Below are positions 35,283 to 62,030 of a DNA stretch of 64,000 nucleotides, piece by piece. The notes below the pieces were generated by a model. That model worked only from the letters and a program-made list of their open reading frames with translations. It was not told the origin of the DNA and searched no databases. Positions within the stretch are counted from its first letter, which is position 1. Each line of letters starts with the position of its first letter. The stretch comes from Eledone cirrhosa (taxonomy: Eukaryota): NCBI GenBank assembly GCA_964016885.1, contig OZ024741.1, forward strand, positions 397,668,001-397,732,000, given 5' to 3'. The translations under genes and the position numbers were made by a program.

Positions 35283-38050
35283 ATATACACCTGAGATATA
35301 CCACCTAGACTGGGGTACACCTGAGATATACCACCTAGACTGGGGTGGTGTACCTGAGATATACCACCTAGACTGGGGTACACCTGAGATATACCACCTA
35401 GACTGGGGTATACCTGAGATATACCACCTAGACTGGGGTACACCTGAGATATACCACCTAGACTGGGGTACACCTGAGATATACCACCTAGACTGCGGTA
35501 CACCTGAGATATACCACCTAGACTGGGGTACACCTGAGATATACCACCTAGACTGGGGTACACCTGAGATATACCACCTAGACTGGGGTACACCTGAGAT
35601 ATACCACCTAGACTGGGGTACACCTGAGATATACCACCTAGACTGGGGTATACCTGAGATATACCACCTAGACTGGGGTATACCTGAGATATACCACCTA
35701 GACTGGGGTACACCTGAGATATACCACCTAGACTGGGGTATACCTGAGATATACCACCTAGACTGGGGTACACCTGAGATATTCTACCTAGACTGGGGTG
35801 GTGTACCTGAGATATACCACTTAGACTGGGGTATACTTGAGATATACCACCTAGACTGGGGTGGTGTACCTGAGATATACCACCTAGACTGGGGTGGTGT
35901 ACCTGAGATATACCACCTAGACTGGGGTATACCTGAGATATACCACCTAGACTGCAGTGGTGTACCTGAGATATACCACCTAGACTGGGGTACACCTGAG
36001 GTATACCACCTAGACTGGGGTATACCTGAGATATACCACCTAGACTGGGGTACACCTGAGATATACCACCTAGACTGGGGTACACCTGAGGTATACCACC
36101 TAGACTGGGGTACACCTGAGATATACCACCTAGACTGGGGTACATCTGAGATATACCACCTAGACTGGGGTGGTATACCTGAGATATACCACCTAGACTG
36201 GGGTGGTGTACCTGAGATATACCACCTAGACTGGGGTGGTGTACCTGAGATATACCACCTAGACTGGGGCACACCTGAGATATTCTACCTAGACTGGGGT
36301 ACACCTGAGATATACCACCTAGACTGGGGTACACCTGAGGTATACCACCTAGACTGGGGTATACCTGAGATATACCACCTAGACTGGGGTGGTGTACCTG
36401 AGATACACCACCTAGACTGGGGTATACCTGAGATATACCACCTAGACTGGGGTGGTGTACCTGAGATATACCACCTAGACTGGGGTGGTGTACCTGAGAT
36501 ATACCACCTAGACTGGGGTGGTGTACCTGAGATACACCACCTAGACTGGGGTACACCTGAGATATACCACCTAGACTGGGGTATACCTGAGATATACCAC
36601 CTAGACTGGGGTGGTGTACCTGAGATACACCACCTAGACTGGGGTGGTGTACCTGAGTATACCACCTAGACTGGGGTACACCTGAGGTATACCACTTAGA
36701 CTGGGGTACACCTGAGGTATACCACCTGGACTGGGGTACACCTGAGATATACTACCTAGACTGGGGCACACCTGAGATATACCACCTAGACTGGGGTACA
36801 CCTGAGATATACCACCTAGACTGGGGTGGTGTACCTGAGATACACCACCTAGACTGGGGTGGTGTACCTGAGTATACCACCTAGACTGGGGTACACCTGA
36901 GGTATACCACTTAGACTGGGGTACACCTGAGGTATACCACCTGGACTGGGGTACACCTGAGATATACTACCTAGACTGGGGCACACCTGAGATATACCAC
37001 CTAGACTGGGGCACACCTGAGATATACCACCTAGACTGGGGTGGTGTACCTGAGATACACCACCTAGACTGGGGTGGTGTACCTGAGATACACCACCTAG
37101 ACTGGGGTGGTGTACCTGAGTATACCACCTAGACTGGGGTACACCTGAGGTATACCACTTAGACTGGGGTACACCTGAGGTATACCACCTGGACTGGGGT
37201 ACACCTGAGATATACTACCTAGACTGGGGCACACCTGAGATATACCACCTAGACTGGGGTACACCTGAGATATACCACCTAGACTGGGGTGGTGTACCTG
37301 AGATACACCACCTAGACTGGGGTGGTGTACCTGAGTATACCACCTAGACTGGGGTACACCTGAGGTATACCACTTAGACTGGGGTACACCTGAGGTATAC
37401 CACCTGGACTGGGGTACACCTGAGATATACTACCTAGACTGGGGTATACCTGAGATATACCACCTAGACTGGGGTATACCTGAGATATACCACCTAGACT
37501 GGGGTACACCTGAGATATACCACCTAGACTGGGGTACACCTGAGATATACCACCTAGACTGGGGTGGTGTACCTGAGTATACCACCTAGACTGGGGTACA
37601 CCTGAGGTATACCACTTAGACTGGGGTACACCTGAGGTATACCACCTGGACTGGGGTACACCTGAGATATACTACCTAGACTGGGGCACACCTGAGATAT
37701 ACCACCTAGACTGGGGTACACCTGAGGTATACCACCTAGACTGGGGTACACCTGAGATATACCACCTAGACTGGGGTACACCTGAGATATACTACCTAGA
37801 CTGGGGCACACCTGAGATATACCACCTGGACTGGGGTATACCTGAGATATACCACCTAGACTGGGGTACACCTGAGGTATACCACCTAGACTGGGGTACA
37901 CCTGAGGTATACCACCTAGACTGGGGTATACCTGAGATATACCACCTAGACTGGGGTACACCTGAGGTATACCACCTAGACTGGGGTACACCTGAGGTAT
38001 ACCACTTAGACTGGGGTACACATGAGGTATACCACCTGGACTGGGGTATA
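35283..38050. repeat. 30/33-bp hairpin-prone minisatellite, about 90 copies
   Basis: CCTGAGATATACCACCTAGACTGGGGT(GGT)GTA/ACA units; variant blocks recur in the 3' half. Confidence 0.97.
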
Positions 38051-38829: not shown

Positions 38830-40012
38830 ATGTCAGATCAGGCCTCTGCTAGTGGTACCATATAACCCAGTACAACCTTCTACATGGTCAGATCAGGCCT
38901 CTGTCTGCCACTTGTACTATGTAATCCAGTACAACCTGCTTTGTGATCAAGTCAGGCTTCTGTCTGCCACTTGTACTATGTAATCCAGTACAACCTGCTT
39001 TGTGATCAAGTCAGGCTTCTGTCTGCTACTTGTACTATGTAATCCAGTACAACCTGCTTTGTGATCAAGTCAGGCTTCTGTCTGCCAATTGTACTAAGTA
39101 ATCCAGTACAACCTGCTTTGTGGTCAGGTCAGGCTTCTGTCTGCTACTTGTACTATGTAATCCAGTACAACCTGCTTTGTGGTCAAGTCAGGCCTCTGTC
39201 TGCCACTTGTACTATGTAACCCAGTACAACCTGCTTTGTGGTCAGGTCAGGCCTCTGTCTGCCACTTGTACTATGTAATCCAGTACAACTGCTTTGTGAT
39301 CAAGTCAGGCTTCTGTCTGCCAATTGTACTATGTAATCCAGTACAACCTGCTTTGTGGTCAGGTCAGGCTTCTGTCTGCTACTTGTACTATGTAATCCAG
39401 TACAACCTGCTTTGTGATCAAGTCAGGCTTCTGTCTGCCACTTGTACTATGTAATCCAGTACAACCTGCTTTGTGATCAAGTCAGGCTTCTGTCTGCCAA
39501 TTGTACTAAGTAATCCAGTACAACCTGCTTTGTGGTCAGGTCAGGCTTCTGTCTGCTACTTGTACTATGTAATCCAGTACAACCTGCTTTGTGGTCAAGT
39601 CAGGCCTCTGTCTGCCACTTGTACTATGTAACCCAGTACAACCTGCTTTGTGGTCAGGTCAGGCCTCTGTCTGCCACTTGTACTATGTAATCCAGTACAA
39701 CCTGCTTTGTGATCAAGTCAGGCTTCTGTCTGCCAATTGTACTATGTAATCCAGTACAACCTGCTTTGTGGTCAGGTCAGGCTTCTGTCTGCCAATTGTA
39801 CTATGTAATCCAGTACAACCTGCTTTGTGGTCAGGTCAGGCTTCTGCCTGCCACTTGTACTATGTAATCCAGTACAACCTGCTTTGTGGTCAGGTCAGGC
39901 TTCTGTCTGCTACTTGTACTATGTAACCCAGTACAACCTGCTTCATGGTTGAGTGGTCAGTAACTAAACTGGTTCTCCCATCAGACCCTGGTCTGGTCAA
40001 ACCCAGTTCAAC
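38830..40012 (+). repeat. 59-bp minisatellite (about 19 copies) derived from the 5' end of the 21816-type element
   Basis: Units end in CCAGTACAACCTG; the last unit continues TTCATGGTTGAGTGGTCAGTAACTAAACTGG, similar to 21853-21897. Confidence 0.9.
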
Positions 40013-41169: not shown

Positions 41170-41922
41170 TCATCATCATCATCATCATCACCGTTTTACG
41201 TCCGTTCTTCCACGCTAGCATGGGTTAGACGGGTTGTCCTGTTGTGGGCAGTGTCTGGTCGGCTGACCATGCCTTGCTCATACAGGAACTGATCTGGCTT
41301 GATTTCTACGGCTGGATGCCCTTCCTAACACCAACCTCATTTACAGTGAGTGCTGGGTGCTTTTTCGTGGCGCCTACACGTCCACTTTACAGTGTGGGCT
41401 GGGTGCTTTTTTGCCGTGGCACCTCCACGACCACCTTGCGGTGGGGGGGGGGGGGGGGGGCATATTGTTTATATGCTTCAGCATGTACCCATGGGAGGTC
41501 GGGTACCCTGTATTACTGCGTGACGCCAGAAGTCACGGTCGTGTGTCATTGACTTTGAGAGGTGTAGTTGGGTAAGGTCGGCTTTTATCACCTCATCCCA
41601 AGTCATCTTGGGTCTCCCCACTCCGCGGTTTCCATCAACTTCTAGTGCTCTGCATCTTTTTATGCAGCTGTCATCCTTCATACGCATCACATGTCCATAC
41701 CAGCGTATGTCCATACGCATCACATGTCCATCCTGCACGCAGCATTTGATTCCTCTTATGCTCAGTCTCTCTCTCAATTCATTTATGCTTTGTCGTTCAC
41801 GTATATTACTGTTACACATCCATCGGAGCATGCAGGCTTCGTTTCTCTCTAATCTCCGTAAGTCTTCCACCTTCAGCGCCCAGGTCTCACTACCATGCAA
41901 CATCTCACTACCATGCAACAAT
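41170..41922 (-). mobile_element. 5'-truncated RTE (third subfamily)
   Basis: MLHGSETWALKVEDLRRLERNEACMLRWMC..GRPKMTW plus 3' UTR and (GAT)n tail. Confidence 0.92.
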
Positions 41923-42029
41923 GATATGTAATACAAGTGATTACACAGCTAACATAACTCATGACACAGCTTATAAGTTGTATAAGATTTTATGTCTTAA
42001 CTAACCTTCAGAATAAAACAGCTGGTAAA

Positions 42030-42076
42030 AGAGAGAGAGGGGGGGGGGGGGTTGATAAGTAGAGACACAGACAGTC

Positions 42077-42107
<31 letters not shown>

Positions 42108-42220
42108 GAGGGGGGATGGTTGATAAGTAGATAGACCGACAGTCAGATAGGTAGATGGATAGAGAGAGAGAAGGGGGTTGATAAGTAGATAGATAGAGAG
42201 GGGGGGTTGATGAGTAGATA
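42030..42220. repeat. GATA/poly-G minisatellite (Tx1 target array)
   Basis: GATAAGTAGATAGATAGAGAGAGGGGGTT-like units. Confidence 0.9.
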
Positions 42221-42452
42221 AATTTCTATTTATTTGCCACGAGGGCATAAAAGAAGGGGACATTTACACAGTGGGGGAGTTTACATAAATCGAGTAAAGA
42301 AAAAAGGAATAACAATAATAATATAACAATAAAAAGTCCTCAAAAGGGAGGGGGCGTGTTGGGGATTGCACATACCCCCGAAAAGTGTGCAACTCTTTTC
42401 GCGGGGGAAGCCCAGAGAGGAGGCGCTCCCCCTTTCCTCTTCACTTCTTCAC

Positions 42453-45400
42453 CTACAGAACAATGTAGAGAGAAGGCCCATTTACACGGGCCATTCTCGC
42501 TTCTTTCACCCACCTTTCATAAAACTGTCTGGGACCAAGCACTTCTCTCTCCATCCTGATCCTTCTTCCGAAGTGGTATCGGAAGAAGTAAACCAGGTGA
42601 TGGCCGGAGAGAAAGTCACCCGACCTCAGACCTTTCAGGCGCGTCCACCACACAACCTCTTTCATCATGGCTATTACGCACAGAAAGACCGCCTCTGCTT
42701 CATTTCTGAAGGGAGGAGGCGGCTTGATGTTCACCACAGACTCGGCGGTTAATCGAATCGGCGCCACACGCGACAGCAGTCGTTCGACGTAGCCCCACAG
42801 ATCGGCAACGCCCGGGCAGTGTACCAGTGCATGCGCAACGGTTTCCTCGTCGCGCACGCATCTGGGACAGATCTTTTTCGCGGGATCCCTGCCCGGGCGC
42901 CCGTGTCTGTAGAGCTTTTCTCGAACGGGCAGAGCCCCCCGGTAACACTGCCAGGCTAGGGACCTCTGGAAGTTGTCCATGGGTCCCGGGCCGAAAGTTC
43001 TACCGAACAGGCTGGCCAGTTCGTCCTCCTCCATGCCTAGCGACTCTCCAAGGGTGTCGTCGCCCCTGCTAGCCACCAACCCTCTATAGAATGTCGAGGT
43101 GGATTCTCCACTGACAGTCGGGTCCGCTTGCCAGATAGCCGTGAGCGCCTGGGCACACTCGGTGTGCCAGTTGCCCAGTTTTCTCGGTCTTTGCTTCACC
43201 CAGGATTGCAGTTCGGTGAGCGAGACGAGCTGTGGGAAGGCTCGCTTCACAAACGGGGCCCACACCGGCTGACCGTTGAGGAATACTTGTAGATGCCGTA
43301 GCCTCAATGCGTGCCTACGCATCAACAGCCACGGCATACCCAGCCCTCCTTTCGAAGGGTGCTGGCAGCAGATGGATCTCCTCACCATGGGAGGCCGCTT
43401 CTTCCAGAGGAACTGGAAGAGCATGCGTTCCATGATGGTGAGCTTTTCCTTGGGGCAAGGCACGACGGTCAGGCGGTAGTAGATGACGGACGCTATGTAA
43501 GCGTTCGTCACCCCCGCCCGACCTTTCAGTGATAGTTTGCACTTGGCCCACTTCTGGGTCAGCGCAAACACCCTGCTCGTCACCTCACCCCAATTCTTCT
43601 CCACCTGGAGGTCCGGTCCGAACCAGACCCCGAGCAGCTTCACCGGGCCCTCCGTCCACCGCCCGACGACACCGTCTAACGGCATCGGTTTGCCCCTCCA
43701 CGTTCCGAGTTGCAAACCGACTGACTTGTCCTGGTTCAGCTTAGCCCCCGTCAGCCTTTCGTATTCCTCCAGTAGGGTGGCGATCGCCCCGATTTCCGAG
43801 GCGTCCGCCACCATTACTGTTACGTCGTCGGCATAGGCCGAGACCGCTTTGTGCAATCCCGGTTCCAGGGGTATGCCCCGCAGCAACTCCAACTTCCGCA
43901 GCAGTGGCTCGAGAGTCAATACGTACAGAAGGGAGAAGAGGGGGCACCCCTGTCTGATGGATCGGGTGATTTGAAACGGCTCCGAGAGGTAGCCGTTTAC
44001 TTTAATCCTAGAGTAGATGTTGCCACTGTGCATGGCAGAAATCCAGCCCCTGAAAACGTGTCCGAAGCCCGCCGCCGCTAGCACCGCATCCAGGTAACCA
44101 TGGTCGACCCTATCGAACGCCTTAGATTGATCCAAGTTGATCAGGGCCCCACCAAAGCCGGGTTCGTAGCCAACCCTCTCTATGATGTATCGCATGAGGT
44201 GGAGGTTGTCGTGAATGGACCTGGACGGGATAGCGCATGTCTGCGCGTCTCCCACCAAACCACCCACCACAAGCGCCAACCTCTTCGCCAACACCTTGGC
44301 CAAAATCTGTAACTCTGCATTCAGCAGAGTTATGGGCCTAAAGTTACTTAAGTCGTCCCCCTTGCTCTCGTCCTTCCTCACTAGCGTGACCACGCCCTTG
44401 GTCACAGAACAGGGAATTCTCCCGTTCTGTTGCCAGTTGCAATAGACAGCCTCGAGGAGTTCGGAGAACAAGACCGGCATAGCTAAATAAAGTTTGTATG
44501 GTAGACCATCGAGACCCGGGGATTTGCGTCTGCTGCATTGGCTGAGCGCTTCCCCGATTTCAGTGGCTGTGATTGGCCTTTCGCAGCACTCCGCTTCGCC
44601 GCTCGAAAGATGCGGTAGACCGTCGAGGTATGGACCGAAGTCCACATCCTCGTCCGGCCCCCCGCCACCTCCGAACAGTCGAGCAAAGTGCCTTTGAAAG
44701 GTCTCGCACATTCGCTCAGGTTCAAGGATCACCCGTCCATCCTGGTCTCGCAAAGACCGAATGGTGGATTTAATCCCACTCTTGGCTTCTGTCACGCGGG
44801 CCCAGCTAACAGCTTTGGTCCCCTCGTTTCCTAAAGCACGTATTTTACTTCGGACAACGCAGCCTTCATGCTTCGCGTCAAAGAACTGGCTCAACGCCGT
44901 TTTCGCCGCTAACACTCTGGCTACGTCTCCGCTCCTAATCGCCTCTTCTAGTTTATCTGTTAACTCCCTTTCCTTCCTATTTCTATTCGCCGCTAGTTCC
45001 TTACTGTAACCTATCGAACTTACTCTAATCTCTCTCTTTAGAGATACCCACCACCTACTGTTGACGATCGCTCCCGTCAACCACATCTTAACTAAGCTAC
45101 TAATCCGGTTTCTGTAATCTTTCTTTGTCAGTAAGGACAAGTTCATCTTCCAGTAACCGGGACCCTGTCTATGCGTTCTATCAAGGTTGACCACGCAGGT
45201 CACTAATTTGTGATCTGAATAGCCAACCATGATCAGTTCTGGACAACTAAATACGTCCCTATCCTTACTCCTAACCAAAAACCTATCTAGGTACGATCTA
45301 GATTGTCCACTGCGGTTTGCCCAGGTCCAGGTTGGCGCAGTTGGACAATCTAGTCGAAATCTATCGACCAGGTCGAATCGATCGAGTAACCCCTTGAGGC

Positions 45401-45886
45401 TGCTACACCCCCCTCTATCGGGACATGCCCCTGCATAGTCCCAACGCGCATCTAGGATTCCATTCCAGTCCCCCACTAAAAGCAGGGAACGCGACGTTCC
45501 TAGAAAAGTCTCCAGACGCTGGAAGAAGTCGGCTCTTTCCGCCCCGAAGGGAGCATAAAGACCGACCAGCCTGAAAGCCCCGCCTTCACCGCCTCCGACG
45601 TCCAGCACCAGTAATCGACCCCCCGGGTCCGAGTGAACAATCTGTACGTCGAGAGTCAGACGTTTATCCAGCAGTACGGCAACTCCCCCCCCCCCCCGCC
45701 TCCGGGTTGACAGAGAGATGCGTGCATCTCAAAGTCATCGAAGGCGGGCGCCAGCTGTCTCACGCTGCTGATCCGACTCTCGCAAACAACCATCACATCT
45801 ATACTTTGTGACCTGAGGTCACTTAGAAGCTTTGCTTGCTTCCAAGCTGAGCCCAGGCCACGCGCGTTCAAACAGCCAACTCTCAA
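42453..45886 (-). CDS. Tx1 ORF2 (APE endonuclease, RT, C-terminal CCHC); one frameshift at poly-C about 45685-45698
   Basis: LNARGL, GDWN, SYLDRF, SDH; SPGLDG, FRPITLLN, DQSKAFDRV, RQGCP, AYADD; CPRC..ETVAHALVHC. Confidence 0.92.
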
Positions 45887-45891
45887 TTGAT

Positions 45892-47752
45892 CTATTTTGG
45901 TGTTGAAAGTGAAGAAAGAAAAGCATTTACCTCTCCGGGTTGCGTAATTTCCATGGCATCAGGTGTGTTGGGTGGAGGGATGTTTTGTGATGGTGTGGGG
46001 GTACACGTGTGTGGTGGGGTTGGGGTATTTGGAGTTGTGTCAGGGAGAGGGGCGGTTATGGGGAAATCTTTCAAGAGGACGCGATTCAACGGTTTTAAAC
46101 AGGGGGGGCTCACGTCCCGTCTAAATTGTTCTTTTAAGGAACGATAAAGGTCCAGAGGGACCTTTATCATTTTTAAATGGGTGAAGTTCTCTGTTGAGAT
46201 AAAGTTTGGCCCTTCGGTCTGCACCATAGGGTTATTGTTTATTAATTTAACCAGTTTTTTGTTTTCTTTATTTATATATGTGTATTGCAACGTCTTTTTT
46301 TGTGATGCTGTCAATGTTTCGGAGAGGGGAGGCGCAGATTTATTTTTGTTTGTTGAGGGTGGGGTGTTTTTGATTGGAGTTGGTGTTTGTGTGTGGGTTA
46401 TTTGTGGTGTGCTGGGTGTGTGTTTTCTTTTTTTTCTTTTAACTTGTCTGAAGGCTTCTCCTCCTTCTTCTTCAGAAGTTGGGGGAAACTCTTCAGCGCT
46501 AGGTGGGAGGGACGTGTTGTGTGGTTGTTTTTTTTTTTGCGGGAGGGGTAGATTTGTTACTGTTTTTTTTATTATTTGTTTGGAATGGGTTTTGTGGTGG
46601 TGGTGGTAATGTTTGTGTCGTGTTTGTGGTTGGTGATGGTGGTGGTGATGTTTGTGTTGTGGTTGGTGGTGGTGATTTTTGTGTCGTGCTTGTGTTTGGT
46701 GCTGGTGGTGGTGATGTTTGTGTTGTGTTTGTGGTTGGTGGTGTCTGTATTTTGTTTGCTGTGTGTGGTATTAGTGTATTTTTGGAGGTGGGTGGTGTTG
46801 GTGTACTGTTTGTGGTGGGTGTGGGCAATAGTCCTTTTTGGGGGATACGTTTCGGGCAGTTAGCCTTAACGTGTCCCCTTTCCATGCATAAATAGCATGC
46901 TGGTCTTCTCCGCTCTACAATTATGTCTATTGGGGTAAGGTCATCCAGCCAGATGCGATCCGGGATTTGTGCTATTCTTTCGGGCCTCATTTGGACTAGT
47001 ATGTCGAGGCCCATTCCCAGGAACGCATCTCCAGTTGCCTTCCCCATTGACAGCATTGTGTCTTCGCCCATATCTATGAAGCCAGCAATAGCCCACCAGA
47101 AGTCCATTGTGGGCAGCATTGTTTTTACTTTTACTCTCTGTGTTCTTCTACCCATGTAGGAGGGATAGAAGCTATATGTTGTCGATGAGAGTGGGCTTAG
47201 GGAAAGCTTCTCCGCCGTTTCCTTGTCTCTTGTTAGGACCGAAATGCTGCCATAGAGTCGGTCCTTTCGTATGAAGAGAATATTCTTCATATAGTCTTTT
47301 AGGACTAACTCTATTTCCATTTGGCTGGGCTGTGCTGGCTTTCTTGTCTGGTTCAGTATAGTTCTGTAGAGAACTGTGCTTTCTGTTCTGGCTTTCTTGA
47401 ATTCTGGGGGGGAGTTAATGGAAAACATTCCGTTCTCCCCCAAAACAATGTGTTTCTTTGCTTCGGCCAGTTTTTCTCTGGCGGCAGTTAGGTCAATTGG
47501 TGTGTATGTAATGGATTGTTTTGTTTTCTGGGCGAAAGTTGCCCTGTTGTTATTTGTATTATTTTCTGTTTGTTTGTTTTCTGTTTGCTCATTTTCCTTA
47601 ACATTTGTTTTTTCATTTTCTTTGTTTGTTTCATTGTCTAATTTTGTTGTAATTATTTTTTGTTCTTCAGACTTGGGGGGCGTGGCAGAGCTAATGGCAG
47701 ACATGTCTGCCATCTTTTCCGCCATGCTGCCAAGAAAGAAATTTTTCGGCAA
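45892..47752 (-). CDS. Tx1 ORF1 (gag-like, zinc knuckle); frameshift at poly-T about 46530
   Basis: CYLCMERGHVKANC; Pro/Thr-rich linker; downstream frame resumes with FRQVKRKKRK and TASQKKTLQYTY, homologous to element 2. Confidence 0.82.
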
Positions 47753-47927
47753 AAATAGATATTTATTTTACCCCCTAAAAAGGGGGTAAATGCAAAAATG
47801 TTTCCCTAAAAAACAGGGGTTAGTGTTCCAAATGTGTTGCACTGAAAAATTTATCCGGTACTTACAATAGTAAGGGTAAATCCCGATGGAATAGCGGAGC
47901 CGATGTGAAGCGTGTCTTACTCTATCA

Positions 47928-48190
47928 AGATAGATAGATAGATAGATAGAGAGAGAGGGGGGGTTGATAAGTAGATAGATAGAGAGAGGGGGTTGATAAG
48001 TAGATAGATAGAGAGGGGGGAGTGATAAGTAGATAGATAGAGAGAGGGGGTTGATAAGTAGATAGATAGAGAGAGGGGGTTGATAAGTAGATAGATAGAG
48101 AGGGGGGGGGGGGGGTGATAAGTAGATAGATAGAGAGAGGGGGTTGATAAGTAGATAGATAGAGAGAGGGGGTTGATAAGTAGATAGATA
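47928..48190. repeat. GATA/poly-G minisatellite between the two Tx1 elements (about 8 units of 30 bp)
   Basis: Direct inspection. Confidence 0.95.
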
Positions 48191-48454
48191 TGTTTCTTTT
48201 ATTTGCCACTAGGTCATCAAAAGTGGGACAAGTACAAAGGGGGGAGTTTACACAAAAAGGCGTCCTCAATAAGGAGGAGGCAATAACAAAATATAAAAAT
48301 AAAATAAGATATAACAAAAAATAAAATTTATAACAAAATCCTCAATAGAGAGGAGGCGCCTTGGGGGGTCGCACACACCCCCGAAAAAAGTGTGCAACCC
48401 TTTTCCTCAGGAGCACAGAGAGGGGGTGCTCCCTCGTTCCTTCCTCTTTTCCAC

Positions 48455-51400
48455 CTACAGGCTTATGTAAAGAGAAGGCCCATTCACACGGGCCATTCTC
48501 GCCACTTTCACCCACCTTTCATAAAAACGACTGGGGTGCAGCACCTCTCTCTCCATCCTGATCCTTCTTCCGAAATGATATCGGAAGAAACGGACCAGTT
48601 GTTGGCCAGAGAGAAAGGTGCCTGACCTCAGTCCTTTCAGACGCGTCCACCATACAACCTCTTTCGCCATGGCTATTACGCACAGAAACACCGCCTCTGC
48701 TTCATCTTTGAAGGGGGGAGGCGGCTTGATCATTACAATAGACTCGGTGGTCAACCGGATCGGTCCCACCCTTGACAGCAGTTGTTCGACATAGCCCCAC
48801 AGATCGGCTACGCCCGAGCAGTGTACCAATGCGTGTGCAACGGTTTCCTCGTCGCACACGCATCTGGGACAGATCTTTTTGGCAGGGTCCCTACCCGGGC
48901 GCCCGTGTCTGTAGAGCCTTTCTCGAACGGGTAAAGCCCCTCGGTAGCACTGCCAGGCCAGGGACTTCTGGAAGTTGTCCATAGGTCCCAGGCTGAATGT
49001 CCCACCGAACAGGCTGGCCAGTTCGTCCTCCTCCATGTCTAGGGCTTCTCCGAGGGCGTCGTCGCACCTGCTGCGTACCAGCCCTCTATAGAATGTTGCG
49101 GTGGAGTCTCCACTGATAACCGGATCCGCCTGCCAGAGGGCGGTGAGCGCCTGGGCACACTCAGTGTGCCAGGCGCCCAGTTTTCTCGGTCTTTGCTTGA
49201 CCCAGGATTGCAGCTCGGTGAGTGAGACGAGTCTGGGAAAGGTTCGTCTCACAAACGAGGCCCACACCGGTTGTCCGGTGAGGAATACGTAGAGGTGCCG
49301 TAGCCTTAATGCGTGTTTACGCATCATTAGCCACGGCATCCCCAGCCCTCCTTTCGAAGGGTGTTGACAGCAGATGGATCTCCTCACCATAGGAGCCCGC
49401 CTCTTCCAAAGGAATTGGAAGAGCGCGCGCTCCATCTTGGTGAGGGTTTCCCTTGGGCAGGGCACTACGGTCAGGCGGTAGTAGATGACGGACGCTATAT
49501 AAGTGTTCGCCACCTCCGCCCGACCTTTCAGGGATAGTTTGCAACTGGCCCACTTCTGGGTCAGTGCAAACACCCTGTTCGTAACCTCCGCCCAGTTTTT
49601 CTCCACCTGGAGGTCCGGTCCGAACCAGACCCCGAGCAACTTCACCGGGCCCTCCGTCCAGCGTCCGACGACGCCATCGGAGGGCATCGGTCTGCCCCTC
49701 CACGTGCCGAGTTGCAAACCGATCGACTTGTCCCGGTTCAGCTTAGCCCCTGTGAACTTTTCGTACTCCTCCAGTAAGGTGCCGACCGCCTCGATTTCGG
49801 AGGCCGTCGACACCATTACTGTCACGTCATCGGCGTAGGCTGACACCGCTTTCCGCAATCCCGGTTCCAAAGGGATGCCCTGCAACAACTCCAACTTCCG
49901 CAGTAGTGGCTCGAGAGTCAACACATACAGAAGGGAGGAGAGAGGGCACCCTTGTCGGATGGACCGCGCGATTTTGAACGGCTCCGATAGGTAGCCGTTC
50001 ACCTTGACCCTAGAGCAGATGCGGCTGCTGTGCATAGCAGTGATCCAGCCCCTGAAAACGGGTCCGAAGCCTGCCGCCGCTAGCACCGCATCCAGGTAAG
50101 CATGGTCGACCCTATCGAACGCCTTAGATTGATCCAAGTTGATCAGAGCCCCACCAAAGCCGGGTTCGTTCCCAACCCTCTCTATCGCATGAGGTGGAGG
50201 TTGTCATGGATGGACCTGGACGGGATAGCGCATGCCTGCGCATCTCCCACCAGGTTGCCCACGACAAGCGCCAACCTCTTTGCTAGCACCTTGGCCAAAA
50301 TCTGTAACTCTGTATTTAGCAGAGTTATGGGCTTGAAGTTACTTATTTCGTCCCCCTTGTTCTCGTCCTTCCTCACTAGCGTGACTACGCCCTTGGTCAC
50401 AGTACAGGGAATTCTCCCGTTCTGTTGCCAGTTGCAGTAGACCGCCTCGAGGAGATCGGGGAACAAGTCCGGCATAGCTAGATATAATTCGTAAGGAAGA
50501 CCATCGAAACCCGGGGATTTGCGTTTGCCGCATTGGCTCAGCACGTCCTCTATCTCAGCGGCCGAAATCGGCTCCTCGCAGGACTTTGCCTCCCTGTCCG
50601 AGTGGCGCGGCAGGCCGTCGAGGTATGGACCGAAGTCCACGTTCCCAACCGGCTCCCCGCCCCTCCCGAACAGTCGGGCAAAGTGCCTTTGAAAGGCCTC
50701 ACACATCTGCTTAGGCTCAAGAATCGCCCGTCCATCCAGGTCTCGCAAAGACCGGATGGTGGATTTAGTTCCACTGTTGGCCTCTGTCACGCGGGCCCAG
50801 CTAACAGCTTTGGTCCCCTCGTTCCCTAGAGCACGTATTTTACTTCGGACAACGCAGCCTTCGTGCTTCGCGTCGAAAAACTGGCTCAAAGCCGTTCTCG
50901 ACGCTAGCACTCTGGCCACGTCGCCGCTTCTAATTGCCTCTTCTACTCTATCTATTAGCTCCCTTTCCTTCCTATTCCTATCCGCAGCTAGAACCTTACT
51001 AAATTCTATCGAGACTACTCTAATCTCTCTCTTTAGAGATACCCACCACCTGCTGTTGACGATCGCTCCAGTCAACCGTTCCTTCACTAACGTACTAATC
51101 CGATTCCTGTAGGCTCTACTTGCCGGCAAGGACAAGTTGAGCTTCCAGTAACCGGGGCCCTGTCTATGGGTTCTATCAAGGTTGACCATGCAGGTCACCA
51201 ACTTGTGGTCTGAATAGCCAACCATGAGCATTTCTGGACAACTTAAAAAGTCCCTGTCCTTATTTCTAACTAAAAATCTATCTAGGTACGACCTAGATGA
51301 TCCGCTGCGATTTGACCAAGACCAGGTTGGCACCGTCGGAAAATCTAGTCGAAATCTATCGGCCAGGTCAAATCGGCCGAGTAACCCCTTGAGGCTGTTG

Positions 51401-51885
51401 CACCCCTCTCTATCGGGACATGCCCCTGCATAGTCCCAACGTGCATCCAGGATACCATTCCAATCCCCCACTAAAAGCAGGGAACGGGACGTCCCTAGAA
51501 AAGACTCCAGACGCTGGAAAAAGTCGGGCCGCTCTGTTCCGAAAGGGGCATATGCGGCTACCAGCCTAAAGGCTCTACCTTCACCACTGCCAAGGTCCAG
51601 CACCACCAGTCGACCCCCTGGGTCCAAGTGAACTATCTGTGTTGCAAGGCCCATATGTTTTTGCAGCAGAACGACAACCCCACCCCCACCTCCGGGCTGA
51701 CAGAGAGATGCGTGCATCTCAAAGTCGTCAAAGGTGGGGGCTAGCTGCCGCATGCTGCTGATCCGGGCCTCGCAGATAACCATCACATTTATAGATTGTG
51801 ACCTGAGGTCATTTAGAAGCATTGCTTGCTTCCAAGACGAGCCCAGGCCACGCGCATTTAGACACCCTACTCTTAGCACAGCCAT
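48455..51885 (-). pseudogene. Tx1 ORF2, disrupted by a 7-bp deletion at about 50185
   Basis: MAVLRVGCLNARGL..; CTCTCTATCGCAT versus CTCTCTATGATGTATCGCAT in element 1; the two halves are ORFs 50182-51909 and 48455-50137. Confidence 0.9.
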
Positions 51886-51909
51886 GTTGGTGGTAAGGAG
51901 AAAAGGCAC

Positions 51910-53547
51910 TTACCTCTCTGCGTCCCAGGAAACGGGCCGCTCAATTTCCATGCTGGTTGGGGATGGGTTGTTGGGTGGGGTGGTGGTTTGTGGAAGTGAA
52001 GGGGCATCGGTGTGTTGTGGGGTTGGGGTGTTTGTGGTTGAGTGGGTGTCTGGGTGGGGTGAGGGGGTGAATTTTTTTAGGAGGACGCGGTTGATTGGTT
52101 TGGCGCAGGGGGGGGGGGGACCCACGTCCTCCGTGAAATTTATTTTCAGTGTTTTGTACAAGTGCATTGGGACTTTTATCATTTTTAAATGAGGTAGTCC
52201 CACAGCAGTTATAAAGTTAGGCCCTTCAGTTTGGCCCGTAATTATTTGTTATCTGTGTTCATGTATGTGTATTGTAAGGTCTTTTTTTGTGTAGCAGTTA
52301 GTGTTGTGTGACAGGGAGGGGTGGTTTGTGTGTAGTTTGTGTTCTCTTGGGGGGGGGGTTAAAGTTAACATGTGTGTCTGTGGTGCGTCTCCTCTTCTTT
52401 CTTTTTACTTGTTGGAAGGGATCTTTTTCGTCTTGCGACGAAAGAGGTTCGTCTTCCTTGTTGGGTGGGAGGAGTATGTTTTCTGGTAGTGTTTGCGGTG
52501 TGCGTGTTTTTGTATTTGTTTTGGGTGGGGAGGGATTGGGTGGGACAATATTCTGTGTTATTTTTTCACGTGTTTGTTGTTGTTGTTGTTGTTGTTGTTG
52601 TGGTGGTGGTGGTGGTGGGGTTGTTGGTTTTTGTTGTTGTTGTGGTTGTTTTTGTTGTTGTAGTTGGGGTGGTGTTGGTGTTGGTAGCAGTGTTTTTTTC
52701 TGTGTGAGCTGGGGACAGGCAGCCCTCAGGTGACCTCTATTGCCACAGAGGTAACAGGAGGGACGCCTACCCTCCACAATAATGTTGAGGTGTGTACGGT
52801 CATCCAGCATGACGCGCTCAGGGATTTGGGCGATGCGTTCTGGCCTTATTTGGGTCAGAACTTCGATGCTCGTTCCACTGAACGCGTCGCCGGATGCCTT
52901 CCCTATTGAAATGAGGTTGTCCTCGTCTAAATTGAGGAAACCGGTTAGTAACCACCAGTAGTTTATGTTTGGGGTGATGGTGGTTATCCATATCCTCTGG
53001 GTTTTTTTACCCATGTAGGTGGGGAAGAAGGTGTAGTGTGTGGACCGAATTGGCGACACAGAGTATTTTTTTGCCGCCAATTCGTCTTTCATCAATATGG
53101 ATAAACTCCCATAGAGTTTATCCTTTTGTATAAAAGTGATATCTCTCATCGCGTCTTTCAAGACTAACTGAATTTCCGCTTGAGATGGTTGCGCTAGTTT
53201 CTTTGTTTTATTTAAAATTGTTCGGAATACGACAGTTCGTAATTCCGTCTGTCTTTTTAGCTCCGGAGGTGAATGTATAGAAAACGAACCGTTTTCGCCA
53301 AAAGACACATATTTCTTGGCTTTTTCCAGCATTTCTTTTGCTTTTGAAATATCTTCCAGCACATAAGCGACTGATAATTTAGCCGTTTGTGCAAAAGATA
53401 TTTTGTTTTCGCTTTGGATTTTAGTATTGTTTTGTTTCTCGTCGTTTGAGTTGTTTTCATCTTTGTTGTTGTTGTTGTCTTTCTCGTTTGGTGTGTGGAT
53501 ACTTGTGACGTTTGTGTTGTTGTTGTTTTTGTTGTCTTTATTGTTGC

Positions 53548-53578
<31 letters not shown>

Positions 53579-53710
53579 TTCAAATTCTTGTGTAGTTGTG
53601 GCTACATCTAGTGGTCGGTCAACAGGTGAAGACAATTCTTCCTCTCTCTGACCTCTGCCTTTGGCATCTGCTGCTGTGACAGTGGCAGGGGGAAGCTGTG
53701 AGTATGACAT
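51910..53710 (-). pseudogene. Tx1 ORF1, frameshifted near the C-terminus
   Basis: CYLCGNRGHLRAAC; shift at poly-G about 52350 and a short deletion near 52245. Confidence 0.82.
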
Positions 53711-53833
53711 AGATAGACAGTCAGATAGGTAGATAGATAGATAAATAGATACAGAGAGGGGTGATAAGTAGATAGACAGCCAGTCAGATAGGTATATAGA
53801 TAGAGAGAGAGGGGGGTGATAAGCAGATAGATA

Positions 53834-53882
53834 TATTTCTTTATTAGCCACAAGGGAGCACAAGAAAAGAGGACAGAACAAA
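53834..53882 (-). mobile_element. extremely 5'-truncated Tx1 3' stub
   Basis: TGTCCTCTTTTCTTGTGCTCCCTTGTGGCTAATAAAGAAAT followed by TATCTATCT, like the 3' ends of elements 1 and 2. Confidence 0.75.
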
Positions 53883-54249
53883 GATAGACAGTCAGATAGG
53901 TAGGTAGATAGATACAGAGGTGGGGATGATAGATAGATAGATAGACAGACAGTCAGATAGATAGAGAGAGAGTGAGCAAGAGAGCGAGGGGAAAGAGTAG
54001 AGGATATGCAGCATTATTAAAAAAGCACAACATTTGTGTTACCTTTGAAAAGACACAGATGTAACAGTTAAGTAGTACCAGAGGGGTTTCTCCTACAACA
54101 ATTACTTAGAGTTTTAACAAGAACCTCTTTGTTAACCTATAACCTGATTTACACCTGTCCTAGTTTTGTGACAGTTTTAACCTGAATCCCTTTGTTAACC
54201 TTTAACCTAATTTACACCTGTTCTACCTAGTTGTCAACTTAAAACTTGC

Positions 54250-54753: not shown

Positions 54754-54979
54754 TTAACCCCCTATTTACATTACTCTATATTTACTATTGCATTTTCGCA
54801 GTAAAATTTTTATCTCAGATAATTTTCCCACATAATATCAAATCTATGAGCTTTTGATATTATTTATTTTGGGAACAATACCTTAAAATAGGTATGAGCA
54901 GCCAGTTATGGCCAGTTTGAACAGAAAGAGGTGAGAGAATTTTGGCCGGATACGGCTGGTTTGAATGTTAGAGGGTTAA
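54754..54979. mobile_element. piggyBac-like MITE
   Basis: TTAA-CCC ... GGG-TTAA; homologous to 29649-29877. Confidence 0.8.
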
Positions 54980-56029: not shown

Positions 56030-57842
56030 ATAATAAATAATAATGAAATTATTGTGTATAGTGCTCAGGTGCACTACAACTCATCAAAGGTGCATGTATA
56101 GTACATAGAATAATATACAAATGTCAGGGAAGTGAATAGTGTATGAGTCATGATATACATGTGTGCGTGTGTATGGAGGGGGAATATTAGGTGTAGTGTT
56201 GGCGAATCTCAGGAAGCATGGAAGTTTTAAAGGATGCAGTGTCTCGACAGCTAACAACTGATGTAGGTAGTTTGTTCCATGGAGGTTTTAAAGGATGCAG
56301 TGTCCTGACAGCTAACAACTGATGCAGGTAGTTTGTTCCATGGAGGTTTTAAAGGATGCAGTGTCTCGACAGCTAACAACTGATGCAGGTAGTTTGTTCC
56401 ATGGAGGTTTTAAAGGATGCAGTGTCTCGACAGCTAATAACTGATGCAGGTAGTTTGTTCCATGGAGGTTTTAAAGAATGCAGTGTCTCGACAGCTAACA
56501 ACTGATGCAGGTAGTTTGTTCCATGGAGGTTTTAAAGGATGCAGTGTCTCGACAGCTAACAACTGATGCAGGTAGTTTGTTCCATGGAGGTTTTAAAGGA
56601 TGCAGTGTCTCGACAGCTAACAACTGATGCAGGTAGTTTGTTCCATGGAGGTTTTAAAGGATGCAGTGTCTCGACAGCTAATAACTGATGCAGGTAGTTT
56701 GTTCCATGGAGGTTTTAAAGAATGCAGTGTCTCGACAGCTAACAACTGATGCAGGTAGTTTGTTCCATGGAGGTTTTAAAGGATGCAGTGTCTCGACAGC
56801 TAACAACTGATGCAGGTAGTTTGTTCCATGGAGGTTTTAAAGGATGCAGTGTCTCGACAGCTAACAACTGATGCAGGTAGTTTGTTCCATGGAGGTTTTA
56901 AAGGATGCAGTGTCTCGACAGCTAATAACTGATGCAGGTAGTTTGTTCCATGGAGGTTTTAAAGAATGCAGTGTCTCGACAGCTAACAACTGATGCAGGT
57001 AGTTTGTTCCATGGAGGTTTTAAAGGATGCAGTGTCTCGACAGCTAACAACTGATGCAGGTAGTTTGTTCCATGGAGGTTTTAAAGGATGCAGTGTCTCG
57101 ACAGCTAACAACTGATGCAGGTAGTTTGTTCCATGGAGGTTTTAAAGGATGCAGTGTCTCGACAGCTAATAACTGATGCAGGTAGTTTGTTCCATGGAGG
57201 TTTTAAAGAATGCAGTGTCTCGACAGCTAACAACTGATGCAGGTAGTTTGTTCCATGGAGGTTTTAAAGGATGCAGTGTCTCGACAGCTAACAACTGATG
57301 CAGGTAGTTTGTTCCATGGAGGTTTTAAAGGATGCAGTGTCTCGACAGCTAATAACTGATGCAGGTAGTTTGTTCCATGGAGGTTTTAAAGAATGCAGTG
57401 TCTCGACAGCTAACAACTGATGCAGGTAGTTTGTTCCATGGAGGTTTTAAAGGATGCAGTGTCTCGACAGCTAACAACTGATGCAGGTAGTTTGTTCCAT
57501 GGAGGTTTTAAAGGATGCAGTGTCTCGACAGCTAACAACTGATGCAGGTAGTTTGTTCCATGGAGGTTTTAAAGGATGCAGTGTCTCGACAGCTAATAAC
57601 TGATGCAGGTAGTTTGTTCCATGGAGGTTTTAAAGAATGCAGTGTTTCGACAGCTAACAACTGATGCAGGTAGTTTGTTCCATGGAGGTTTTAAAGGATG
57701 CAGTGTCTCGACAGCTAACAACTGATGCAGGTAGTTTGTTCCATGGAGGTTTTAAAGGATGCAGTGTCTCGACAGCTAACAACTGATGCAGATAGTTTGT
57801 TCCATGCTTCAGCAACTCTAAGCGTGAAAAAATGTTTCCAAA
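56030..57842 (-). mobile_element. CR1-like LINE 3' fragment with internal 61-bp amplification
   Basis: KHFFTLRVAEAWNKLPASVVSCRDTASFKTSMLPEIRQHYT*, then 3' UTR ending in (TTA)n. Confidence 0.85.
56217..57806. repeat. 61-bp minisatellite, about 26 copies, with 4-unit higher-order repeat
   Basis: CATGGAGGTTTTAAAGGATGCAGTGTCTCGACAGCTAACAACTGATGCAGGTAGTTTGTTC; the linked variants CTAATAACT / AAAGAATG recur at about 244, 244, 244, 183, 244 bp. Confidence 0.97.
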
Positions 57843-58583: not shown

Positions 58584-61500
58584 TCATCATCATCATCATC
58601 AACGTTTAACGTCCGTGTTCCACGCTTGCATGGGTTTGGACGGGGGTAGTCCCACTTGAGGCAAGAGTGATTGTCTTGCTCGCATAGGACTGTCTGGCAG
58701 GTTTTCTACAGTTGGATGCCCTTCCTAACACCAACCACATTTACAGTGTGGGTCTGGGAGGTTTTTACCGTGTTGCCTACATGGCCACATTACAGCGTGG
58801 ACTGTGTTTTTTTGTCGTGACACCTACACGATCTCATTTGTTTCGGCCTGGATGGCGCGGCACCAACATAACTTTACATAGAACGGGGTGGTGTGGATGG
58901 GGTGGGGGTGGTGGTGGTGGGACGGGGTGTATTTTGTTAGAGATGCCTACTGGCAAGGCGGGTCTTCTCTATTACTGAGTACCGCCAAAGGTCTCGGTCC
59001 AGTGACATTGTCTTGGTGAGGTGTAAGTGTGTGAGGTCGGAGTTTATCAGCTCGTCCCAGGTTTTTCTGGGTCTGCCTACTCCGTGGCTACCGTCTATCT
59101 TTATTGCCCTGCACTTTGTTATACAGCTATCATCCTTCATGCGCATCACGTGACCATACCAACGTAGCCTTCTCTCTAGTAAACAACATCTGATCCCTCT
59201 TATTTCTAATTTTTTCCTTAGTTCGTTTATGCTTTGTCGTTCACGTATATTACTATTACACATCCAGCGGAGCATGCAAGCTTCGTTTCTCTCTAGTCTG
59301 CGTATATCCTCTGCACACAATGCCCAGGTCTCACTGCCATGCAACATTGCTGTTCGTATGCAGGCATCGTACAGCCTGCCTTTCATTTTTAGGGAGAACC
59401 CTTTAGCGGCTAATAGTGGTATAAGCTCTCTGAACTTTTTCCACCCAGTTCTGACTCTAGCTACTGTACTTTCAGAGCACCCTCCCCCACTGCTGATTTT
59501 GTCACCCAGGTAACGGAAGCTGTCCACTATTTCTATAGAACCCTCTGCGCAGTTGAAAGAGCTAGTATTTTGTGGGCACTTGCTGCTACTTATATCCCCA
59601 GAACACCGGCCACATGTAAAATCTATGTTCTTAGTTAGCTTACCTGTGATCCCACTACATCTTTTATGCACCCAAACTTTGCATTTGGGACACAAAATGG
59701 AATTTCTACCTACGCCTTTCCTACACTCTGCGCATGGCCACTTCCTGGAGGGGACCGCCGCCTTATTTTCTTTCTTACAAACTAGAACTTTAGTCTTAGC
59801 TAGGTTAATTTTAAGGCCTTTTGATTCTAGGCCGTGCTTCCATGTTTGGAATTTCTTCTCTAGCTCGGCCATTGATTCAGCTATGAGCGTTAGATCATCT
59901 GCGTATAGGAGTTCCCATGGGCAGCCGGTCTTGAACTCCACTGTTATAGCCTGGAGGGCAATAATAAATAGTAGGGGGCTAAGAACAGTGCCCTGATGAA
60001 CAACAACTTTTACACTAAACTCTTCACTATATTCGTTGTTAATTCTAACCTTGCTAACTGTTTCTTTATACATGGCTTGTATAGCTCTCACAAGCCATTC
60101 ATCAACACCTAGTTTTCTAAGAGCCCACCAGATAATGGAACGGGGGACTCTGTCGAAGGCCTTCTCCAAGTCGACGAAAGCTAAGTATAGGGGTTTACTT
60201 TTAGCTAGGTACTTCTCCTGTAGTTGTCGTACAATGAAAAGAGCGTCTGTGGTACTTTTTCCTGACACAAACCCGAACTGCATTTCATCTAGATCAATTC
60301 GCTCTCTGATTAGTTGCGCTATAACTTTTTCCGTGACCTTCATGACCTGGTCGATTAATTTAATGCCTCTATAGTTACTCCTATCTAGGGCGTCTCCTTT
60401 ACCCTTATAACAGTTAACGATAATGCTGCTGCGCCAGTCCTTCGGAACAACCCCATTCTGTATGACTTGGTTGACTATCCGGGTGACCATGGTGTGTCCC
60501 ACCATACCAGATGCCTTCAGCATCTCGGCAACTATTTCCGAAGGCCCAGCCGCCTTGCCTGTCTTCATATCTTTGATTGCCTTACTTATTATACTACCCT
60601 CGACTAACACTGCTGGTCCCTCTATTGGGTCGATGTGGGGGAGACTGTCTTTCTCCCATTTATTCTCCTCATTTAGTAGCCTTTCATAGTGACACTTCCA
60701 AGCTACCTTCTTATCGGCGTCGGTGATGGCAAGTATGCCGTCATCGTTAAGTACACACTTCTCCCCGACAATATCACTGTTTTCCTTGACACATTGCCTA
60801 GCAATCCTGAACACCTCACGTTTTTGGTCATCGCGTTGTAGAACATGCTTGAACTTTCTTTCCTCTGCTTCCCTTCTTGCGAAGTACACTTGTCTCCTAG
60901 CTTCCCTCCTGGCCACTTGATAGTCTTCTCTGCTTCCCCCATCCCGCCATACTTTCCAAGCCTGCTTTTTGGCCTTAATTGACCCCTCCACCTTACTGTT
61001 CCACCACCATGTTACTCTCCTCTTGCCTACAGGCCTGCTCCAGCCACAGACTTCGTCTGCCGCCGTCAGCAGGTTTGCTTTCAGGAATTCCCACAGTTCC
61101 TCTACCTTGTACGTCTCTAATTGCTCTTCCTCACTGTCGAAAGCATCAAGTAATATGCTTTGGAATTTATTTTTGGCTTTGGGGTCCTTTAGCTTCCATA
61201 TTTTTCTCCTGAGGATAGTCCTCTTCTGTTGTCTAGTACGTCTCGTCCTGACTATTAGGTCGCTAATTATCAGTCTATGTTGGGAAGTGCATTCTTCATG
61301 GGGGAGGGATTTAGTGTTTACGACAGTCACTTTGTCACGTCTTCTGGTAAGGATATAATCTACCTGGCTAGTATGTTCCCCTGATCTGTAGGTGATCAAG
61401 TGATTGTCTCGTTTTTTGAAGTTAGTGTTGCAGATAGTTAGGTTATTTGCGTCGCAGAATTCCAGGATTCTGGAGCCTTCCTCATTTCTAGTACCAAACC

Positions 61501-62030
61501 CATAGCCTCCATGGATTTCGTCGTAGCCGTCACAATGTTGTCCAACGTGACCGTTTAGGTCGCCTGCAATAATTATATAGTCACTGTCGGTTATTTGGGA
61601 GGTAGTGAGCATCAGTGTCTCATAGAATCTGTCTTTTATAGTGCCGGGCAGTCCGGATTGGGGTGCGTACGAGGATATTACTGTCACCGTAGTTCTATTG
61701 AGGACAAATCTTATTTTAATTATTCTGTCGTTCACTCTATTTACGTCTATTATCTTATCTGCCCACTTTTCTGCTACCATGATTCCTACTCCACCCAGCC
61801 CATTGTCGTTTCCCACCCAGAAAAGCTTATAGCATCGTTTTCTACCCACAATGTATCTAGCAGATCCCACCCCTCCACCTGGTCTCTTGGATACAACAAA
61901 CATCGACCTCCTTACGTTCAAGCATTTCTACAACCTCGTTAGAGCGACCCTTTAAGGTGCCTACATTCATGGTACCAAATCTGAAGTTTTGGATTGCGTT
62001 TGGGGGGTTGGAAAGGTGGGGAACGGGGGG
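58581..62030 (-). mobile_element. RTE-clade LINE, near-complete ORF, probably 5'-truncated (copy B)
   Basis: APE, RT and PHD-like finger; 3' UTR and (GAT)n tail; abuts (TC)n/(TA)n at the 5' end. Confidence 0.96.
58937..61990 (-). CDS. RTE APE-RT polyprotein; single +1 frameshift at about 61870
   Basis: True N-terminus FRFGTMNVGTLKGR..DVCCIQETRWRG lies in another frame from ORF 58937-61921; GDLNGHVG, SQVDYIL, NYRGIKL, VDLEKAFDRV, LLYADD. Confidence 0.92.

What the first reader, a model, noticed from the sequence alone, without database searches (positions are those of the whole stretch)
42030..53965. Sequence-specific Tx1 retrotransposons stacked head-to-tail in a (GATA)n/poly-G minisatellite
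Seen: two long elements of different subfamilies and a 50-bp stub, all on the same strand, each 3' end (GTGGC(A/T)AATAAA..GAAA) followed by TATCTA(TCT)..(C/T)ATCA(A)CCCC, and each 5' end preceded by ..CTATCT. Known: the Tx1 clade includes target-specific families (U2, 5S, tRNA, microsatellites). Inference: a (TATC)n-targeting APE endonuclease family, possibly undescribed. The 30-bp spacer array may itself grow through repeated target duplications or abortive insertions.
Basis: partly seen in the sequence, partly recalled or inferred. Interest (0 to 1): 0.72.

Follow-up and report, generated by a model that had tools for sequence, protein, structure and literature searches.

The report
GATA-repeat-targeting LINEs in local minisatellite
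Three copies of a young, very abundant jumping-gene family, in what is likely an octopus-type genome, sit at the same step of GATA-like repeats as about 20,000 relatives do, likely because their enzyme cuts there; repeat-seeking relatives are known, but I found no report of this target, and close sister families use other targets.

Summary
Confirmed, with corrections. On the minus strand lie a full-length element (E1), a 5'-truncated one (E2, 82% alike) and a 48-bp stub of a third subfamily: APE-RT LINEs of the L1/Tx1 group. Genome-wide, 19,690 of 30,619 family 3' ends are followed by TATCT (control 4). At 18 informative insertions the target-site duplication starts exactly at TAT (10-22 bp in 16), so TATCT is target, not tail; there is no poly(A). 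Full-length copies add a short target-like head, so the 5' CTATCT is partly element-derived. The 29-bp spacer occurs only at this locus and flanks the elements on both sides: a pre-existing minisatellite, not an insertion product. Sister lineages use (ATT)n, or a 72-bp satellite inside a TTAA-flanked MITE (ORF2 84% identical). Enzyme cleavage plus RNA-target pairing is inferred, not shown. Tx1 membership could not be tested against labelled references. No paper on a GATA target was found; Repbase was not searchable. This scan reported the same family, and both sister families, before on other DNA of this genome, and the family in another genome.

The parts
42221..47927 (-). Element E1, full-length (5.7 kb) APE-RT LINE; 5' end TGATAGAG, 3' end GTGGCAAATAAATAGAAATT, no poly(A)
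   Evidence: 99.1% to a family copy elsewhere
45892..47725 (-). E1 ORF1 (about 620 aa in intact copies), frameshifted in a T run near 46538
42453..45895 (-). E1 ORF2: APE endonuclease, RT (YADD), C-terminal CCHC; frameshifted in a C/G run near 45670-45697; ATA in the place where E2 has its ATG
48191..53708 (-). Element E2, 5'-truncated (lacks the first 261 bases), TSD TATCTAT
   Evidence: 97.9% to a family copy elsewhere
51910..53708 (-). E2 ORF1 remnant with a weak zinc-knuckle match; start missing, frameshifted
   Evidence: (zf-CCHC E 0.003, below cut-off)
48455..51885 (-). E2 ORF2 (APE-RT-CCHC), broken by a small deletion near 50186
53834..53881 (-). 48-bp 3' stub of a third subfamily (GTGGCTAATAAAGAAATA), TATCT on both sides
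47928..48190 (-). About 8 x 29-bp unit TATCTATCTACTTATCAACCCCCTCTCTC, then (TATC)5; locus-specific minisatellite
42030..42220 (-). Same minisatellite downstream of E1 (29-bp and longer degenerate units)
53709..53833 (-). Degenerate minisatellite units between stub and E2
53882..53970 (-). Degenerate minisatellite units upstream of the stub

Best explanation
These are three separate insertions of a young L1/Tx1-group retrotransposon radiation whose copies end directly on TATCT, likely because the element's APE endonuclease nicks the GATA strand at about 5'-AGATA^G-3' and reverse transcription is primed there. SHOWN: domain layout, junction motif, duplication boundary, 5' truncations, no poly(A), target-like heads on full-length copies, stacking. 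INFERRED: the AATAAA signal lies only 6-8 nt before the junction, so transcripts would end inside the downstream repeat. Their (UAUC)n would pair with the nicked GATA strand, and priming would skip the poly(A). The second strand is cut about 10-22 bp further on. Each insertion leaves target on both sides (duplication plus head), so later copies land beside earlier ones on the same strand. The host site here is an older, local TATC/C-rich minisatellite; its 29-bp block likely grew by ordinary slippage or unequal exchange.
For: Domains and catalytic residues intact in family copies; best PDB match human L1 ORF2p at E 3e-114 against R2 at 8e-38. GTGGCWAATAAA: 30,619 matches, control 465; with TATCT 5-9 nt later 19,690, control 4. 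With hits whose query ran into the flank left out, TATCT follows 122 of 135 E2-type and 37 of 38 E1-type ends. 49 of 65 truncated E2-type copies have TATCT within 25 nt upstream of the 5' junction, background 4.7%. In 18 informative duplications (of 102 two-ended insertions) the three bases TAT match the upstream copy 18, 17 and 18 times, the next two bases only 2 and 1 times. 0 of 378 ends have a run of 8 or more A. Heads: L174 and L182 carry an 18-bp unique duplication followed by 11-15 extra TATCT/CTCT-like bases; L126 has 8 extra. Stacking: 23 of 38 full-length E1 and 12 of 39 E2 5' ends have another family 3' end within 150 nt. Youth: median identity 98.9% (39 E1) and 99.4% (37 E2); both ORFs open in 2 of 39 and 16 of 39.
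Against: No cleavage or RNA data. Specificity is relaxed: 13 of 135 E2-type ends are not TATCT (mostly TATAT), and only 80 of 135 continue as TATCTATC. 16 of 65 truncated copies lack upstream TATCT (some are internal rearrangements). 36% of motif matches are not followed by TATCT; they include sister families. The nick could lie anywhere within TAT if the RNA reads through. Almost no RNA-templated bases are seen at 3' junctions (1 of 18 mismatch, plus L390), so 3' pairing is not demonstrated. No empty allele was recovered.
Confidence: 0.82

Rival explanations
1. RNA-guided targeting dominates: the endonuclease is loose, and read-through target sequence at both RNA ends selects the site, so a lineage inherits its target from the place where its master copy sits.
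For: The satellite-targeting sister is 84% identical in ORF2 and 77% in the endonuclease. Its predicted specificity loop is nearly the same (NRSGTSRS against NRSGSSRS and NRSGQSRS), yet it sits at one base of a 72-bp unit in 20 of 20 first hits. Its full-length copies carry about 25 nt of canonical satellite at the 5' junction even where all local monomers shown differ (L495, L496). The targets share TCTAT at positions 3-7.
Against: 3' junction bases follow the local genome from position 3-4 onward (TATAT, TACCT and ACTCTG variants). EN swapping changed specificity in SART1/TRAS1 (PMC7265360, passages). The ATT families also share a similar loop, so other EN surfaces may decide.
Confidence: 0.3
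2. The GATA repeat is the element's own tail, and the family seeds these microsatellites at random sites.
For: 27 of the first 100 (TATC)3 run starts on contig C1 lie directly at a family 3' end. Full-length copies carry a TATCT-like head.
Against: In non-repetitive sites the element end is followed at once by the duplicated genomic sequence, with no added units (L174, L182, L392, L018). Truncated copies have TATCT upstream in 49 of 65.
Confidence: 0.04
3. The 29-bp spacer array grew by repeated target duplications or abortive insertions.
For: The unit contains the target, and the homogeneous block lies between two elements.
Against: Duplications were 10-22 bp in 16 of 18 cases, and 5-7 bp for the three elements here. 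Units lie on both sides of each element. TATC-bearing minisatellites at other loci also flank both sides (L017, L172, L179, L375). The window has long arrays of period 23, 30, 48, 59, 61 and 81 unrelated to these elements. The unit exists nowhere else.
Confidence: 0.1
4. Passive accumulation: insertion is random, and copies survive in repeats through selection or low recombination.
For: Proposed for Drosophila Waldo-A/B (PMC3812793, passage).
Against: Fixed phase and strand at single-base resolution, in copies about 99% identical.
Confidence: 0.02

Closest known systems
Kibi (TC)n and Koshi (TTC)n of teleosts; crocodilian Tx1 families in (TTCC)n/(TTTC)n (PMC4494074, parts 1-3 of 5 of the text read; PMC3812793, passages)
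   Same: APE-type LINE with two ORFs inserting into the pyrimidine-rich strand of a microsatellite; tandem insertions around a duplicated target (described for SINEU-3).
   Different: Target is TATCT/(TATC)n. Host is likely an octopod (nearest named RT relative Argonauta hians, 67%). About 20,000 ends; relaxed core motif; several coexisting subfamilies. Shared ancestry with Kibi/Koshi was not tested.
Xenopus Tx1L in Tx1D, a non-autonomous piggyBac family (PMC4494074, passage)
   Same: The satellite-targeting sister family here inserts inside a TTAA-flanked CCC...GGG MITE.
   Different: That applies to the sister, not to the window's elements. No sequence comparison with Tx1L ORF2 was possible.
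Human LINE-1 ORF2p (PDB 8uw3; endonuclease 1vyb; PMC1950540, passages)
   Same: APE + RT + CCHC layout, best structural-database match, 5' truncation, duplications of about 10-20 bp.
   Different: No poly(A) tail, and the target is not a T-tract/A junction.
SART1Bm, R1Bm, R7Ag (R1 clade; PMC7265360, passages)
   Same: Repeat-specific insertion by an APE endonuclease, with proposed annealing of target-like RNA to the nicked strand.
   Different: Different clade. SART1 inserts with a poly(A) tail into telomeric repeats.

Membership tests
APE-type non-LTR retrotransposon | N-terminal APE endonuclease with catalytic residues | tested here: met
   Exo_endo_phos above cut-off; N, E, Y, GDWN, D and SDH motifs in the alignment
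APE-type non-LTR retrotransposon | RT with YADD and C-terminal CCHC | tested here: met
   RVT_1 E 5.7e-22; zf-RVT E 2.6e-5 (below cut-off); CPRC...H...C seen
APE-type non-LTR retrotransposon | Variable 5' truncation, fixed 3' end, target-site duplication | tested here: met
   65 truncated and 37 full-length of 102 two-ended insertions; 18 informative duplications
L1 group (L1 + Tx1) | ORF2 closer to L1 than to other clades; separate ORF1 | tested here: met
   L1 ORF2p E 3e-114 against R2 8e-38 (PDB holds few clades); ORF1 of about 620-630 aa
Tx1 clade | RT phylogeny with named Tx1 references (RTclass1/Repbase) | tested here: inconclusive
   The tree groups the family with Argonauta and unnamed proteins, near turtle and fish RTs and apart from plant L1s, but holds no labelled Tx1 or vertebrate L1 row
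Tx1 clade | ORF1 with zinc knuckle | tested here: inconclusive
   zf-CCHC E 0.003, 18 bits against cut-off 20.8 in E2; no hit in E1 although a similar motif is visible. That this is typical of Tx1 is recalled.
Target-specific family (criterion of PMC4494074: target in more than 20% of flanks) | One target type in more than 20% of flanks | tested here: met
   64% of all motif ends genome-wide; 90% (122 of 135) and 97% (37 of 38) per subfamily
Kibi / Koshi | Insertion in (TC)n or (TTC)n | tested here: not met
   Target is TATCT; TC-run junctions are rare (203 forward matches)
L1 clade proper | Poly(A) tail | tested here: not met
   0 of 378 ends
Sequence-specific endonuclease | In vitro nicking at the target | not testable with these tools
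   needs a bench assay

The most novel reading that the evidence does not exclude
An octopod LINE radiation inherits its target partly through RNA. Transcripts begin and end inside the flanking target, so a lineage switches target ((TATC)n, (ATT)n, a MITE satellite) with little change to the endonuclease. Duplications and heads then add target with each insertion, which makes the family a main shaper of the genome's GATA arrays.
Probability: 0.25. Interest if true: 0.75.

Novelty: new variant of a known kind. Interest (0 to 1): 0.48.

Why it matters
How APE-type LINEs choose and change targets is described as not well understood (PMC3812793, passage). Here intact, recently active sister families at 77-85% protein identity use three different targets, so swapping domains and RNA ends becomes a direct test. 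The family is also large: about 30,000 3' ends, with 27 of 100 sampled (TATC)3 runs starting at one. GATA-type microsatellite markers in this animal would often share element-derived flanks.

Tried and rejected
Empty-allele test: 4 runs laid on 41600-42700 gave no record spanning the junction; uninformative. Metagenome scan: 80 loci, best segments mostly 21-39% identical (one 43%); flanks not analysed. ESM Atlas: only generic RT clusters. The cluster-member look-up for names could not be made. LTx against wild-type L1 endonuclease scores differ by only 1-4 bits, and LR1 ranks first in one search, so this is no evidence for Tx1 kinship. The 3' GCC-N5-GGC hairpin is common, but the outer pair is broken in 40 or more of 378 ends; not claimed. 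A separate (TC)n family: the hits are mostly TATC subfamilies at degenerate sites; rejected. Nesting of the satellite family within TATC families is supported on 3' ORF2 DNA (AU p 0.0008, group named after the first tree was seen) but unresolved in the RT protein tree, and chimeric copies exist (L160). Primary hits were left out of the junction counts because the queries ran into the flank; the hits (1-base overlap) were kept. PMC1074724 (R1Bm read-through) is not held; its content is recalled only.

Full report
Observation. The region holds three same-strand (minus) pieces: E1 47927->42221, E2 53708->48191 and a stub 53881->53834. E1 and E2 are 82% identical over 4.2 kb. Pfam gives Exo_endo_phos and RVT_1 above cut-off, zf-RVT below it, and a weak zinc knuckle in E2 ORF1. 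Both window copies are frameshifted; the E1 breaks lie in homopolymer runs and could be assembly errors. E2 lacks the first 261 bases of its family.

Family. The window is in a 3.0-Gb genome. The nearest named RT relative is from Argonauta hians at 67%, so the host is likely an octopod. Family copies have intact APE catalytic motifs, YADD and a C-terminal CCHC. The best PDB match is human L1 ORF2p (E 3e-114), far above R2 (8e-38). An RT tree of 43 rows places the family with Argonauta and unnamed proteins, near turtle and fish RTs and apart from plant L1s, but it has no labelled Tx1 row. Tx1 membership is therefore likely but untested. Copies are young: median identity to one natural copy is 98.9% for 39 E1-type and 99.4% for 37 E2-type copies, and both ORFs are open in 2 of 39 and 16 of 39. 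The 150 best ORF2 C-terminal hits are all 99-100% identical.

Target. The terminal motif GTGGCWAATAAA occurs 30,619 times (control 465). It is followed 5-9 nt later by TATCT 19,690 times (control 4), 64% against about 0.9% expected. With the flank-biased hits removed, TATCT follows 122 of 135 E2-type, 37 of 38 E1-type, 22 of 23 and 15 of 16 ends of two further subfamilies; the E2-type profile is T135 A134 T133 C124/A11 T135 A114 T123 C91. The core is thus TAT(C/A)T, usually but not always within (TATC)n.

Target or tail. Of 102 E2-type insertions with both ends in hand, 65 are truncated; 49 of these have TATCT within 25 nt upstream (background 4.7%). Eighteen insertions gave non-simple duplications. 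The bases TAT are matched upstream 18, 17 and 18 times, the next two only 2 and 1 times. Lengths are 10-22 bp in 16, and 41 and 53 bp in two minisatellite sites. No poly(A) is seen at 0 of 378 ends, and TATCT begins 6-8 nt after AATAAA in 279 of 378. So the repeat is the target. The 5' side is different. All 38 full-length E1 copies scored are preceded by TATCT. L174, L182 and L126 show 8-15 extra target-like bases between the duplication and the element, which indicates transcripts that start in upstream target.

Stacking and the spacer. 23 of 38 E1 and 12 of 39 E2 full-length 5' ends have another family end within 150 nt, so stacking is common and follows from target regeneration (inference). 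In the window each element has its own short duplication (about 5, 7 and 5-6 bp), so these are three events. The 29-bp unit is unique to this locus (7 of 7 matches), longer degenerate units flank all three elements, and the window has many unrelated minisatellites. I read the array as a pre-existing local minisatellite. No empty allele could be seen. On contig C1, 27 of the first 100 of 53,610 (TATC)3 run starts lie directly at a family end (one region only).

Sister families. Of the first 30 motif matches on C1, 11 go on as TATCT, 5 as near variants, 8 into a satellite, 4 into ATT runs, 1 into TC and 1 is a chance match. ATT-type ends number about 2,300 (1,138 forward matches) and form separate branches. 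A second sister has up to 274 ends (3 of 20 sampled were ATT-type) and an ORF2 84% identical to E2's. It inserts at TT^ACTCT in a 72-bp unit (20 of 20 first hits) inside a TTAA-flanked CCC...GGG MITE, an empty copy of which lies in the window at 54754-54979. Its full-length copies carry about 25 nt of canonical satellite at the 5' junction even where the local monomers differ (L495, L496). On 3' ORF2 DNA it nests within the TATC families (100/100; AU p 0.0008); the RT protein tree leaves this open. The predicted specificity loop (located through PMC1950540, passages) barely differs among families.

Mechanism. Shown: anatomy, junctions, duplications, heads, stacking. Inferred: a nick on the GATA strand at or within AGATA^G, priming aided by read-through (UAUC)n, and a second cut 10-22 bp away. 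Annealing of target-like RNA is proposed for SART1 (PMC7265360, passages); the R1Bm read-through result is recalled (paper not held). The share of enzyme and RNA in target choice is open.

Literature. PMC4494074 (parts 1-3 of 5 read, plus term search with 0 hits for GATA and TATC) names TC, TTC, TTCC and TTTC targets; its Fig. 3 labels and supplements were not visible and may bear on novelty. PMC3812793 (passages) lists ACAY, AC, TC, TTC and TAA. PMC13282606 and PMC8967140 (passages) report L1-Tx1 as active or expanded in octopods with no target given. Searches (listings only) found no GATA-targeting LINE.

Earlier scan notes. After I had reached my reading, the look-ups showed unreviewed notes on the same TATC family, the ATT family and the satellite family on other DNA of this genome, and on the TATC family in another genome. 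They agree but are not independent support.

Verdict. A real, base-exact, repeat-targeting LINE family with a target I could not find in print; a variant of a known habit. The spacer-growth idea is not supported.

Noticed in passing
window 54754-54979 (+): Short TTAA-flanked CCC...GGG element (piggyBac-like MITE) with one monomer of the 72-bp satellite that a sister LINE family targets; an empty target.
   Followed up: partly
window 45892-45895 (-); L121-L159: The E1 subfamily has ATA where E2 has the ORF2 ATG (37 of 37 copies matched), overlapping the ORF1 stop (ATAG); ORF2 may start at a non-AUG codon.
   Followed up: partly
window 51905-51920 and 45925-45940 (-); 5' UTRs in L092-L120: Splice-donor-like GAG|GTAAGT or GTAAAT at the ORF1/ORF2 junction of both subfamilies, and a GTAAGT...TTTTGTAG intron-like stretch in the E2 5' UTR; no RNA data.
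   Followed up: no
window 47920-47935 (-); L466-L471: The E1 5' end forms an inverted repeat with its target (TCTATC-TT-GATAGA); the satellite family starts with the palindrome CTCGTATACGAG.
   Followed up: no
window 58937-61927 (-): Unrelated 996-aa APE-RT frame with a PHD-like segment (below cut-off), an RTE/CR1-like LINE.
   Followed up: no
L160; L028: Chimeric copy with an E2-type 5' end and another subfamily's 3' end; and a copy joining the 5' UTR to the interior of ORF2.
   Followed up: no
G000:C12:17058757-17458585: Six hits with the same open-frame length (456 aa), spaced about 60 kb or a larger step: likely a tandem segmental duplication.
   Followed up: no
L350: An E2-type copy inserted into the TATCT-like head of another full-length copy, duplicating part of it.
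   Followed up: partly
window 26870-29013, 35286-38048, 38855-39943, 56217-57806: Long homogeneous minisatellites of period 23, 30, 59 and 61.
   Followed up: no
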